A stretch of 64,000 nt of DNA from an uncultured Acidimicrobiia bacterium (GCA_963810905.1 CAWEPG010000002.1:242178-306177); one strand, 5' to 3'; numbered from the stretch's first letter, positions 7,481 through 8,222 are shown. The notes: a model not told the origin generated them from the letters alone. Translations and numbers: made by a program.

Positions 7481-8163
7481 CCGCTATTCCGCTTCGCTTC
7501 ATACCGGCAGGTGAGCTTTATCGTTCCCAGACGACGAGACAAAATGAACAGCTCGGCGTCGCCGAGCACGGTAACTCGGCGGTGCTCGTTACTGTCGGGC
7601 CCGCCGGCGAGCTCCTCGATCGCCGGCACATCGACCTGACCGATCGCAGTCTGCCGACGCACCCGCATCACCATGAAGGGTCGTGGGCGGTGGGCCGTTA
7701 CCTAAACAGCCCGTGGGCGCGGGCGATTTCGCTCGCCGACGCCGTGGCGCTCGTCGAGCGCGTGCGTGAGTCCGCCGCGCGCGGCGCGCGCGAAATCCTC
7801 GAGGCGCTGGCCGCAACGGTGCCCGTGCCGATTGCGAGCGTTGCGATCCGCGTGTGCCCCAAGCTTCCTCCGACAACCGAGGAGCGGATCGCAGACAATC
7901 GCGCGCAGACCGTCGCCGACTCCGTCATGTATCGCGAGGCCCTCGCGACCGCAGCCGAGGCGCGCGGCTGGTCCGTGCATTGGTACGACCGCGAGCACGT
8001 GTTTCGCGACGCGGCAGCGGTGCTCGGCTGCGAGGACGTCCACGCTTTCCTGCAAGCGATGGGTCGATCGATCGGGCCACCTTGGCAGGCTAAACACAAG
8101 CTTGCGGCAGCGGCGGCGCTTGCGGCCACAGGGCACCCCGTGCTGCGGCCAACCGCCTGGTAA
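7477..8163 (+). CDS. Hypothetical protein, very high GC (~68 %); candidate TTG start overlapping the upstream stop codon
   Basis: The long ORF 7273-8163 overlaps the previous gene in another frame. GC rises abruptly at 7480. The first in-frame start after the upstream stop is TTG at 7477. Confidence 0.4.
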   Translation: MTAIPLRFIPAGELYRSQTTRQNEQLGVAEHGNSAVLVTVGPAGELLDRRHIDLTDRSLPTHPHHHEGSWAVGRYLNSPWARAISLADAVALVERVRESAARGAREILEALAATVPVPIASVAIRVCPKLPPTTEERIADNRAQTVADSVMYREALATAAEARGWSVHWYDREHVFRDAAAVLGCEDVHAFLQAMGRSIGPPWQAKHKLAAAAALAATGHPVLRPTAW

Positions 8164-8222
8164 CAAGGGCATGGAGCCGACGGGGAATCAGACGCGCCGC
8201 GGTTCATGCCCAAGCCGTTATA
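8161..8222 (+). other. attC-like site (TAACAAG - GGGCATGGAGCCG ... CGGTTCATGCCC - AAGCC - GTTATAC)
   Basis: The stop TAA at 8161-8163 lies inside the left core. Arms GGGCATG/CATGCCC pair over 7 bp perfectly, plus 5 of 6 more. The right end is GTTA. Confidence 0.45.

What the first reader, a model, noticed from the sequence alone, without database searches (positions are those of the whole stretch)
8161..8222. Stop-codon-overlapping palindrome TAACAAG ... GTTATAC at a sharp GC boundary
The TAA stop of the 68 %-GC gene lies inside TAACAAG. The arms GGGCATGGAGCCG and CGGTTCATGCCC pair well, and the site ends GTTATAC. The next gene has ~42 % GC. The same TAACAAG start recurs at 6041, again overlapping a stop, and inside the spacer at 23168.
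Basis: seen in the sequence. Interest (0 to 1): 0.55.

Follow-up and report, generated by a model that had tools for sequence, protein, structure and literature searches.

The report
Integron attC site ending a gene cassette
The palindrome is an ordinary integron recombination site (attC) that closes a mobile gene cassette in a chromosomal cassette array of a soil acidobacterium; it is a well-known kind of element, here without an intact integrase nearby.

Summary
The exact site is 8158-8223; GTTATAC is 8217-8223, one base past the stated end. It is an integron attC site closing gene cassette 7524-8217.

Evidence:
- Two related soil-metagenome arrays keep the gene and the palindrome, but homology to the window stops at GTT(A) of 8217-8220. 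A different cassette follows.
- Covariance models trained only on attC-like sites from other loci rank it first or second in the whole window, + strand only (31-44 bits, E 7e-6 to 1e-9). One of these models also recovers exactly the four known attC sites of plasmid R46.
- Sites behind homologous genes elsewhere keep the same stems through 3-6 two-sided changes.
- The site's 5' box pairs better with the first bases of its own cassette (6/7) than with its array neighbour (4/7). The same holds across eight cassettes (P=0.0003).
- The unpaired bases lie at canonical positions 16 and 23.

The 6041 site is an attC of the same sequence subfamily. The 23165 site is not an attC, and the TAACAAG 7-mer alone is at chance frequency. 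The window holds about 12 attC sites (5.5-21.7 kb) and three truncated integrase stumps, but no intact integrase. This is a new member of a known kind; interest is low.

The parts
8158..8223 (+). attC site of the cassette (the finding). Layout on the + strand: R'' TGGTAAC 8158-8164, containing stop TAA 8161-8163; 5' spacer AA 8165-8166; stem 1 GGGCAT 8167-8172 paired with ATGCCC 8206-8211; unpaired G 8173 (position 16); stem 2 GAGCCG 8174-8179 paired with CGGTTC 8200-8205; unpaired A 8180 (position 23); stem 3 CGG 8181-8183 paired with CCG 8197-8199; loop 8184-8196; 3' spacer AAGCC 8212-8216; R' GTTATAC 8217-8223. The inferred crossover lies between G8217 and T8218.
   Evidence: CM hits: R1 31.3 bits E 2.3e-6; R2 43.9 bits E 1.4e-9, the best hit in the window; independent R3 30.9 bits E 7e-6. 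Architecture 12/12 pairs. Homology with L002/L003 ends at 8220.
7524..8217 (+). The gene cassette closed by this attC (694 bp, 68.6% GC). It runs from the TT after the previous crossover to the G of its own R'.
   Evidence: Homology breaks with L002 fall at 7525 and 8220. R'' TGGTAAC is complementary at 6/7 positions to the R' that the excised circle would have (G + TTCCCA 7524-7529), against 4/7 for the array neighbour. GC.
7553..8163 (+). Cargo gene, of an unnamed family. Homology to the family starts at 7553 (LGVAEHG). The native start codon and N-terminus are missing, and the database ORF starts at TTG 7477 inside the upstream attC. The predicted fold is RuvC/RNase H-like.
   Evidence: More than 5000 homologue clusters at 80-92% identity. 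N-termini compared. No significant Pfam or NCBIfam match, best E 0.15 and 0.022, far below cutoffs. AlphaFold model pLDDT 85, pTM 0.83. Foldseek best match RuvC, E 2.7e-5, TM 0.48-0.66.
7458..7529 (+). attC of the preceding cassette (453-aa membrane protein gene). R'' GCCTAAC, R' GTTCCCA. That gene's stop codon, TGA 7478-7480, lies inside the attC.
   Evidence: Homology with L002 (96.6%) ends at 7525, i.e. at the GTT. R2 13.8 bits E 0.31. R'' is 7/7 complementary to its own cassette start GTTAGGC.
R'' AGTTAAC with stop TAA 6041-6043; R' GTTAGGC.
   Evidence: R2 23.4 bits E 7e-4; R1 E 0.05; R3 E 0.1. R'' is 7/7 complementary to its own cassette start GTTAACT.
5521..5615 (+). 95-nt attC-like site that ends the first truncated-integrase module. 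The DUF4279 cassette starts after the G of its GTTAACT. A second copy lies at 13936-14031.
   Evidence: R2 E 0.026 and 0.069 for the two copies. Three different upstream contexts in the window, L002 and L003 all join at GTTAACT. Fold z -3.2.
8611..8737 (+). Long, degenerate attC of the next cassette (8218-8731, with a 93-aa ORF). R'' GTATGAC, R' ATTAGGC.
   Evidence: Read by eye and not detected by the CMs. R'' is 6/7 complementary to its own cassette start GTTATAC. Homology with L002 resumes inside it at 8628.
9769..9823 (+). attC of the alcohol-dehydrogenase cassette. R'' GCCTAAC, R' GTTAGGC.
   Evidence: Homology with L002 for the next cassette starts at 9817, the GTT. R box 7/7. CM support is weak, E about 8 on both strands.
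14617..14684 (+). attC of the GNAT acetyltransferase cassette. R'' is degenerate (GTATAAT). R' GTTATGC contains the ATG of the next (MFS) gene.
   Evidence: R2 E 0.35; R1 E 0.32.
17196..17264 (+). attC of the DUF1697 cassette.
   Evidence: R2 23.8 bits E 5e-4.
18060..18119 (+). attC with the same 5' arm type (..GAT G GAGCCG A C).
   Evidence: R2 E 0.009. Architecture 11/12 pairs.
20934..20999 (+). attC of the glycosyltransferase cassette.
   Evidence: R2 35.2 bits E 3.6e-7. R3 31.6 bits E 4.6e-6.
21609..21676 (+). Last confident attC of the array.
   Evidence: R2 31.3 bits E 4.4e-6. R3 E 1.1e-5.
13521..13730 (-). Longest of three truncated integron-integrase N-terminal remnants, with in-frame stops. 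The others are 5239-5316 and 16374-16472.
   Evidence: tblastn with IntI1. Pfam Phage_int_SAM_4 at 35.4 and 31.7 bits, above the cut-off of 27. Best NCBIfam hit is TIGR02249 integron integrase, E 1.3e-8 and 7.5e-6.

Best explanation
Window 8158-8223 is the attC recombination site of a 694-bp integron gene cassette (7524-8217). The cassette sits in a chromosomal array of about a dozen cassettes (about 5.5-21.7 kb of the window) in a soil acidobacterium.

Inferred mechanism, from established integron biology:
- When the bottom (-) strand is single-stranded it folds into an imperfect hairpin. The elements are an R box (TAAC/GTTA in the array, 6/7 pairs in the excised circle), a short asymmetric spacer, two 6-bp stems, a short third stem and a 13-nt loop.
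- The two 6-bp stems are separated by an extrahelical base at position 16. A second extrahelical base at position 23 follows the second stem.
- An integron integrase binds this hairpin and cuts the bottom strand between A and C of AAC. On the + strand that is between G8217 and T8218.
- The cassette can then be excised (attC x attC) or inserted (attI x attC).

The stop codon of the cargo gene lies inside the 5' box. This is common in cassettes and simply reflects tight packing.

Shown here: the sequence and structure features, the model scores, the covariation, and that related arrays differ exactly at this point. Inferred: the integrase chemistry, and whether the site is still active. The window holds only three truncated integrase stumps.
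For: 1. Comparative breakpoints.
- In the soil-metagenome arrays L002 and L003 the same gene plus palindrome is 93% identical up to window position 8220 (GTTA). A different cassette then follows: a 370-aa gene instead of the 93-aa ORF.
- The upstream block stops at 7525, the GTT of the previous site. The next shared cassette resumes at 9817, also a GTT.
- In L001 the homologous gene carries a different attC, and homology ends just after the stop, at 8165. In L004 homology also ends at 8165, and the downstream sequence is at best a weak attC-like site.

2. Covariance models.
- R1 was built from 16 sites of other loci. It gives 31.3 bits, E 2.3e-6, the best hit in the window.
- R2 was built from 48 sites. 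It gives 43.9 bits, E 1.4e-9, again the best hit, and its first 11 hits are all on the + strand.
- R3 was built from 13 sites, none from the window, from its orthologous arrays or from behind a homologous gene. It gives 30.9 bits, E 7e-6, the second-best hit.

3. The model really is an attC model. On plasmid R46, R2 finds exactly the four known attC sites of the class 1 integron (aadA1, oxa2 twice, orfD), on the cassette strand, at E 1.6e-7 to 2e-3. Nothing else scores below E 0.4.

4. Covariation.
- In the training set, 90% of cells are paired against 70% after shuffling, and 18 of 25 pairs show two-sided changes. This includes a third stem that played no part in selecting the sites.
- Compared with attCs behind homologous genes, 3-6 of 12 stem pairs are changed on both sides and still pair.

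5. R-box test on the excised-circle form.
- R'' pairs with G plus the first six bases of its own cassette at 49/56 positions over eight cassettes, against 35/56 for the array neighbour.
- At the four variable positions the counts are 28/32 against 14/32. Permutation gives P = 0.00026.
- For this cassette the values are 6/7 against 4/7.

6. Geometry. The unpaired bases on the AAC arm sit at positions 16 and 23 with a 6-bp stem between them, and the site is 66 bp long. This matches the description in PMC5027507.

7. Context.
- GC content is mosaic.
- Cargo genes are typical of cassettes: GNAT, MFS, methyltransferase, DUF proteins.
- Three integron-integrase N-terminal remnants are present.
Against: - No intact integron integrase lies in the 64 kb, only three stumps with stop codons. 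Present-day activity is therefore unproven.
- R'' TGGTAAC matches RYYYAAC at only 4 of 7 positions, and R' GTTATAC matches GTTRRRY at 6 of 7.
- The bottom-strand base at position 16 is C rather than the usual G.
- The central spacer is nearly fully paired: 2 nt on one arm and 5 nt on the other, where 5-6 on each arm is usual.
- The folding energy of the isolated site is not distinguishable from shuffles.
- E-values of the home-made models are rough, because calibration was shortened.
- The training sites were picked with an architecture filter that I designed after seeing this site. The third stem and the R46 cross-check are independent of that filter.
- IntegronFinder's own attC model could not be run.
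Confidence: 0.93

Rival explanations
1. It is an attC by descent but is now a fossil. The local integrase genes are destroyed, the cargo gene has lost its start codon, and the site is no longer recombined. It persists only as neutral sequence. This rival concerns present activity, not identity.
For: - All three integrase remnants are short and carry in-frame stops.
- The cargo gene lacks the family's N-terminus and start codon.
- Neighbouring sites are degenerate: R' ATTAGGC at 8731-8737 and R'' GTATAAT at 14617.
- Most homologues of the cargo gene in other genomes are followed only by decayed 5' arms.
Against: - This site itself is the best-preserved in the window, with 12/12 stem pairs and the top R2 score.
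- L002 and L003, at 93-97% identity, already differ by whole cassettes, so exchange is recent on that scale.
- An integrase could be encoded elsewhere on the 906-kb contig or in the genome. Cury et al. found that half of such integrase-less arrays lie in genomes that encode IntI (PMC4889954).
Confidence: 0.4
2. It is a transcription terminator or mRNA-stabilising hairpin of the 68%-GC gene, acting as RNA on the + strand, and has no role in recombination.
For: - It lies directly after the stop codon.
- The + strand folds slightly better than the - strand (z -1.6 against -0.8).
- Covariation alone would also fit an RNA hairpin.
Against: - No T-run follows the stem, and the terminator scan of 7400-8800 finds nothing at the site.
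- The model that scores it also finds the four attC sites of R46.
- Homology between arrays breaks exactly at GTT.
- The R'' box matches the cassette's own first bases.
- The conserved AAC and GTT ends and the unpaired bases at positions 16 and 23 have no role in a terminator.
Confidence: 0.03
3. It is a chance palindrome, or a copy of a genome-wide repeat such as a REP or MITE.
For: - Generic palindrome scans find as many hits in shuffled sequence.
- The TAACAAG 7-mer is at chance frequency.
Against: - Only 2 of 200 shuffles contain any site with this architecture at 12/12 pairs.
- CM E-values are 1e-9 to 7e-6 and strand-specific.
- No other copy of the sequence occurs in the window.
- The site is conserved in L002 and L003 together with the gene.
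Confidence: 0.01

Closest known systems
attC sites (59-base elements) of mobile class 1 integrons, e.g. attC of aadA1, blaOXA-2 and orfD in plasmid R46 (In1), and attC of aadA7
   Same: - The 5' ..AAC and 3' GTT.. boxes, and an imperfect hairpin.
- Unpaired bases on the AAC arm of the top strand at positions 16 and 23, separated by a 6-bp stem. The base at position 23 is A on the top strand, i.e. T on the bottom strand.
- Length of 66 bp.
- Position right after the cargo gene, with the stop codon in or near R''.
- Crossover at G|TT.
- One covariance model scores both kinds: 43.9 bits here, 33.5 for aadA1, 24.1 and 22.1 for oxa2, 18.8 for orfD.
   Different: - Position 16 is G on the top strand (C on the bottom). 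In all four R46 sites it is C on the top (G on the bottom), and the literature describes the bottom-strand base as 'usually a G'.
- Positions 10-15 pair perfectly (GGGCAT/ATGCCC), so the central spacer is only 2 and 5 nt rather than 5-6 unpaired on each arm.
- R'' TGGTAAC departs from RYYYAAC.
- The site is chromosomal, with no intact integrase next to the array.
attC sites of sedentary chromosomal integrons (e.g. Vibrio cholerae repeats)
   Same: - A chromosomal array of many cassettes, mostly of unknown function.
- Partly shared attC sequence within the array: the 5' arm ..AT-G-SRGCCG-A-C occurs in five sites.
- From my own knowledge of the V. cholerae repeat sequence, not tested here: the spacer region is more fully paired than in mobile integron sites.
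   Different: - The attCs here are far more heterogeneous (55-127 nt, different arms) than the near-identical Vibrio repeats.
- The host is an acidobacterium.
- The integrase is reduced to stumps.
CALIN elements (clusters of attC sites lacking an integron integrase; Cury et al. 2016, PMC4889954)
   Same: - Two or more attC sites with no complete intI nearby.
- A nearby intI pseudogene, as Cury et al. reported for 15 of 279 CALIN.
   Different: - Three separate N-terminal integrase stumps lie inside one run of cassettes, each with about 250 bp of conserved upstream sequence.
- Cury et al. searched for pseudogenes with the C-terminal profile, which would miss such stumps.

Membership tests
integron attC site | Conserved triplets: 5'-AAC in R'' and GTT-3' in R' on the top strand, within RYYYAAC ... 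GTTRRRY | tested here: met
   TGGTAAC (8158-8164) and GTTATAC (8217-8223). AAC and GTT are present. The degenerate flanks match only in part: 4/7 for R'' and 6/7 for R'.
integron attC site | Imperfect hairpin with extrahelical bases on the AAC arm of the top strand, at position 16 and position 23/24, separated by a 6-bp stem (PMC5027507) | tested here: met
   G8173 is position 16 and A8180 is position 23, with the 6-bp stem GAGCCG/CGGTTC between them. The identity at position 16 is atypical: C on the bottom strand instead of G.
integron attC site | Unpaired central spacer of about 5-6 nt on each arm between the R and L boxes | tested here: inconclusive
   Only 2 nt (AA) on the 5' arm and 5 nt (AAGCC) on the 3' arm are unpaired; positions 10-15 form a perfect 6-bp stem. 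The same layout occurs in 27 architecture-selected sites and 48 CM hits from other soil loci, so it is a class feature.
integron attC site | Length 57-141 bp with a variable terminal structure | tested here: met
   66 bp with a 13-nt loop. The range is taken from PMC5027507.
integron attC site | Scores with an attC covariance model, strand-specifically | tested here: met
   Home-made models R1, R2 and R3 give 31.3, 43.9 and 30.9 bits, on the + strand only. R2 was validated on the four attC sites of R46. IntegronFinder's own model was not available.
integron attC site | Marks a cassette boundary: related arrays differ by whole cassettes joined at G|TT | tested here: met
   Homology between L002/L003 and the window ends at 7525 and 8220 and resumes at 9817, in each case at a GTT.
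integron attC site | R'' is complementary to the R' rebuilt from the cassette's own first six bases (the excised-circle form) | tested here: met
   6/7 for this cassette against 4/7 with the array neighbour. Over eight cassettes, 28/32 against 14/32 at the variable positions, permutation P = 0.00026.
integron attC site | Recombined as a folded bottom strand by an integron integrase | not testable with these tools
   Needs a suicide-conjugation or in vitro recombination assay.
complete integron (intI + attI + cassettes) | Intact integron integrase gene with the IntI-specific C-terminal insertion, next to the array | tested here: not met
   tblastn with IntI1 finds only residues 15-83, in three places and with stops. 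No Phage_integrase catalytic domain appears among the window ORFs scanned. The rest of the 906-kb contig was not available.
CALIN (cluster of attC sites lacking integrase) | At least two attC sites clustered within a few kb, with no intI nearby | tested here: met
   Eleven + strand R2 hits at E<0.4, ten of them between 5521 and 21676, plus two sites supported by breakpoints. The definition is from PMC4889954.
intrinsic (Rho-independent) terminator | GC-rich stem-loop followed directly by a T-run | tested here: not met
   The stem is followed by AAGCCGTTATACCGC, and the scan of 7400-8800 reports no terminator-like site here.

The most novel reading that the evidence does not exclude
The site belongs to a structurally distinct attC class that is widespread in soil Acidobacteriota, Chloroflexota, Myxococcota and metagenome arrays. 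In this class the bottom-strand extrahelical base 16 is C instead of G, and the central spacer is almost fully paired. If integrases of these phyla read position 16 and the spacer differently from IntI1 or VchIntIA, the rules of strand choice and efficiency worked out on proteobacterial sites would not transfer.

My evidence shows that the class exists: top-strand G at position 16 in 45 of 48 sites, although that set was gathered with a model trained on G16 sites. It does not show any functional difference.
Probability: 0.15. Interest if true: 0.45.

Novelty: new member of a known kind. Interest (0 to 1): 0.2.

Why it matters
In itself it matters little. attC sites and integrase-less cassette arrays are well described, and this is one more, in an uncultured soil acidobacterium.

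It is useful as an annotation:
- It explains the sharp GC steps across the region.
- It delimits about a dozen cassettes of mostly unknown function.
- It shows that the database gene model for the 68%-GC gene starts inside the neighbouring cassette's attC.

Two side observations are more interesting than the finding itself:
- The repeated integrase stumps, each with conserved upstream DNA.
- The very widely transferred cargo gene with a RuvC-like predicted fold.

Tried and rejected
- Generic scans for AAC...GTT palindromes did not separate the window from shuffled sequence and are strand-symmetric by construction. I tried RNAfold closure plus energy density, global and local arm alignment, and a second local-alignment version. 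All were abandoned for an architecture-specific scan.
- Folding energies of single sites are not informative; only the 95-nt site at 5521 stands out.
- Rfam has no hit at gathering thresholds, and there are no tRNAs in the window.
- MAFFT on full-length attCs misplaced the 3' arms. I therefore trimmed the variable loops for the seed alignments and let the model realign full sites.
- The exact-sequence look-up of the window's own protein found no contig on record, and the cluster look-up gave no name.
- A candidate site at 23100-23156 (ACCTAAC...GTTGCCA), picked by eye, got no model hit at E<=10 with R1 or R2, nor at E<=5 with R3. It was dropped.
- My first guess for the host was Planctomycetota, from the PSCyt and DUF1501 families. 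I corrected it to Acidobacteriota (Terriglobia-like) from the closest named homologues, at 91% identity.
- My first reading of the unpaired bases as non-canonical in position was wrong. After reading PMC5027507 and aligning the R46 sites, the positions (16 and 23) are canonical, and only the base at 16 differs.

Full report
**Observation.**
- The TAA stop (8161-8163) of the high-GC ORF lies in TAACAAG.
- The arms GGGCATGGAGCCG (8167-8179) and CGGTTCATGCCC (8200-8211) pair at 12 of 12 positions once G8173 is left unpaired.
- The site ends in GTTATAC at 8217-8223, one base past the stated end. With its 5' box TGGTAAC the full site is 8158-8223.
- The gene (7553-8163) is 69.9% GC, the next ORF 44.3% and the window 52.2%.
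- TAACAAG recurs at 6041, overlapping another stop, and at 23165. The 7-mer itself is at chance frequency: 6 copies against 4.9 expected.
- Generic palindrome scans and single-site folding energies do not separate the site from shuffled sequence. Structure alone would not have been convincing.

**Related arrays.** The protein of the high-GC gene has more than 5000 homologue clusters at 80-92% identity.
- Two soil-metagenome contigs, L002 and L003, carry arrays related to the window.
- The DUF4279 and 453-aa cassettes are 96-97% identical up to window 7525, the GTT of the attC at 7458-7529. In L002 and L003 a different sequence follows.
- The high-GC gene plus the palindrome is 93% identical from 7553 to 8220 (GTTA). 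After that L002 has a 370-aa gene where the window has a 93-aa ORF.
- The next shared cassette resumes at 9817, again a GTT.
- In L001 the same gene is followed by a different site with the same layout: GGATAAC...GTTAGAC. In L004 the downstream sequence is at best weakly attC-like.
- Whole gene-plus-palindrome units are therefore exchanged at the G|TT of the 3' box. That is the signature of integron cassettes.

**Architecture.** Sites behind homologues of the gene, and behind unrelated genes in the same loci, share one layout. It is AAC, 2 nt, a 6-bp stem, one unpaired base, a 6-bp stem, one unpaired base, a further stem, then on the 3' side the partner arms, a 2-5 nt spacer and GTT.
- A scan for this layout at 11/12 pairs or better finds 4 sites on the + strand of the window and none on the - strand. 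In 200 shuffles the mean is 0.3 and the maximum 2.
- The finding is the only 12/12 site; 2 of 200 shuffles contain any.
- In 912 kb of fetched loci the same scan finds 33 sites on the gene strand and 6 on the other.

**Covariation.** I aligned sixteen such sites from other loci (A2).
- 90% of cells are paired against 70% after shuffling. Eighteen of 25 pairs show two-sided changes. Controls with the partner columns slid give 30-40% pairing.
- The third stem, which played no part in selecting the sites, covaries as well.
- Against the window site, attCs behind homologous genes have 3-6 of 12 stem pairs changed on both sides and still paired: L018 6, L101 5, L001 5, L026 4, L095 3.

**Covariance models.**
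- R1, from A2, puts 8160-8223 (+) first in the window with filters off: 31.3 bits, E 2.3e-6. Its first nine hits are all on the + strand.
- R2, built from 48 R1 hits in 100 other loci, gives 43.9 bits, E 1.4e-9.
- R2 then lists 20934-20999, 21609-21676, 17196-17264, 6038-6093, 18060-18119, 5521-5615, 13936-14031, 30379-30476, 7458-7529 and 14617-14684. All are on the + strand.
- R1 included three sites behind homologous genes, so I built R3 from the 13 sites that have no such link. It still gives 30.9 bits, E 7e-6.
- As a positive control, R2 was run on the class 1 integron of plasmid R46. It finds exactly the four known attC sites (aadA1 33.5 bits, oxa2 24.1 and 22.1, orfD 18.8), on the cassette strand, and nothing else below E 0.4.
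- The models are therefore attC models, and the window site scores above a textbook attC. E-values are rough because calibration is shortened.

**R-box test.** When a cassette is excised as a circle, its R' is rebuilt from its last G and its own first six bases. R'' should therefore pair with those bases rather than with the array neighbour.
- For eight cassettes in the window, complementarity is 49/56 with the cassette's own start against 35/56 with the neighbour.
- At the four variable positions it is 28/32 against 14/32. Permutation gives P = 0.00026.
- For the finding's cassette, TGGTAAC pairs with GTTCCCA at 6/7 and with GTTATAC at 4/7.
- This also supports a degenerate attC at 8611-8737 (R'' GTATGAC, R' ATTAGGC) that the models miss.

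**Comparison with the described anatomy.** Nivina et al. (PMC5027507) place the extrahelical bases on the AAC arm of the top strand. Position 16 is usually G on the bottom strand, and position 23 or 24 is a conserved T. A 6-bp stem lies between them, the spacer is 5-6 nt on each arm, and total length is 57-141 bp.
- Here G8173 is position 16 and A8180 is position 23, with a 6-bp stem between. The site is 66 bp.
- Two details differ. The bottom-strand base 16 is C rather than G; all four R46 sites have G there. Positions 10-15 are paired, leaving a spacer of only 2 and 5 nt.
- Both details recur in the soil sites: top-strand G16 in 45 of 48. That set was gathered with a model trained on G16 sites, so the proportion is biased.
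- Within the window, sites 17196, 7458 and 14617 have the usual C on the top strand.

- 6038-6093 is an attC. R2 gives E 7e-4, and its R'' is 7/7 complementary to its own cassette start.
- It shares the 5' arm ..AT-G-SRGCCG-A-C and the 3' end CCGTTRRRC with 8158, 18060, 20934 and 21609. A subfamily exists.
- 23160-23230 shares only the 7-mer. It folds no better than shuffles (z +1.0) and gets no model hit at E<=10 with R1 or R2, nor at E<=5 with R3.

**Context.**
- No intact integrase lies in the window.
- tblastn with IntI1 finds three N-terminal remnants on the - strand: 5239-5316, 13521-13730 and 16374-16472.
- All three carry in-frame stops.
- The two longer remnants (13521-13730 and 16374-16472), the ones scanned, match Pfam Phage_int_SAM_4 above its cut-off. 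Their best NCBIfam hit is TIGR02249 integron integrase.
- By the definitions of Cury et al. (PMC4889954) the region is a cluster of attC sites lacking an integrase (CALIN), with integrase pseudogene fragments.
- Core genes to the right, such as MetH at 34488-38183, mark the end of the variable region.
- The closest named relatives of a flanking DUF1501 protein are Terriglobia/Acidobacteriota metagenome-assembled genomes, at 91% and 80% identity.

**Rivals.**
- Terminator: excluded, because there is no T-run and the scan finds nothing.
- Chance palindrome or genome-wide repeat: excluded by the comparative data and by the absence of other copies.
- The open question is activity, not identity. 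The site may be a well-preserved fossil.

**Verdict.** It is an ordinary example of a known element, with a minor structural variation. Interest is low.

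Noticed in passing
window 5179-5520, 13341-13935, 16254-16619 (integrase remnants on the - strand at 5239-5316, 13521-13730, 16374-16472): Three copies (78-89% identical) of a module lie inside the cassette run.
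- Each is a truncated integron-integrase N-terminus followed by about 250 bp of conserved upstream DNA.
- That DNA carries + strand promoter-like hexamers read by eye (TTTACG, 17 nt, TAATAAT) and the palindrome TTATCAGGGCAAAATTGCCTGATAA. The consensus scan reported a different site, TTGACT-17-TAGGAT at 5323-5351.
- Similarity between the copies ends at ..AATCAATGG.
- All 120 listed database homologues of the stump (of 156 hits) are 77-135 aa with only the N-terminal domain. This includes ones on contigs of 90 kb to 2.1 Mb, sitting divergently next to runs of small cassette-like genes.
- Untested idea: the stump is kept because it carries the cassette promoter.
   Followed up: partly
window 7553-8163; loci L001-L164: The cargo gene belongs to an unnamed family.
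- It has no significant Pfam, NCBIfam or PDB sequence match (best E 0.15, 0.022 and 0.0099).
- It occurs at 70-90% amino-acid identity in Acidobacteriota, Sorangium, Chloroflexota, Alpha- and Gammaproteobacteria, Planctomycetota, Gemmatimonadota and others. That is very wide horizontal spread.
- The AlphaFold model (pLDDT 85) is closest to RuvC Holliday-junction resolvases and the RuvC domain of Cas12g: Foldseek E 2.7e-5, TM 0.48-0.66.
- Most copies are followed only by a decayed attC 5' arm, TAACATGCCGTTGCAGCGGACGG.
   Followed up: partly
window 7477-7552: The window's copy of that gene lacks the family's start codon and N-terminus.
- In L002 and L003 it is the second gene of a two-gene cassette (203 aa + 214 aa).
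- The database protein (P0001, 228 aa) starts at TTG 7477, which lies inside the upstream cassette's attC and overlaps the TGA of the 453-aa gene.
- The gene model therefore spans a cassette junction, or the gene is dead.
   Followed up: partly
window 8611-8737: This is a long, degenerate attC with R'' GTATGAC (AAC mutated to GAC) and R' ATTAGGC (GTT mutated to ATT). Homology with L002 begins inside its 5' arm, at 8628, rather than at a GTT. The 93-aa and 370-aa cassettes thus share the 3' 110 nt of their attC but not the first 17 nt. I have no explanation for this.
   Followed up: partly
window 16046-16069: After the MFS gene lies a bare pair of boxes, ACATAAC AGGCC GTTGGGC, with no hairpin between them. 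ACATAAC is 6/7 complementary to that cassette's own start, GTTATGC. It looks like an attC whose whole stem was deleted.
   Followed up: no
window 14678-14684: The ATG start of the MFS transporter gene lies inside the R' box GTTATGC of the preceding attC. The first bases of this cassette therefore supply its own start codon.
   Followed up: no
window 30379-30476: An isolated attC-like hit on the + strand (R2 E 0.12), 8.7 kb beyond the last confident attC and between ORFs 29267-30370 and 30557-30811. A 147-nt repeat, 26059-26205 and 30498-30644 at 74% identity, lies next to it.
   Followed up: no
window 431-475 / 3830-3874 and 44908-44963 / 58788-58843; also 38294-38321 / 41758-41785: Short intergenic repeats unrelated to the array.
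- G/C-rich palindromic motifs of the type CCCCCTCCTT..AAGGAGGGG (80-82% identical pairs).
- A 28-nt repeat, TGGAGGGTCGAGCTCCTGCGAGACCGGA (96% identical), flanking the protease and sigma-54 activator genes.
These are probably REP-like elements of this genome.
   Followed up: no
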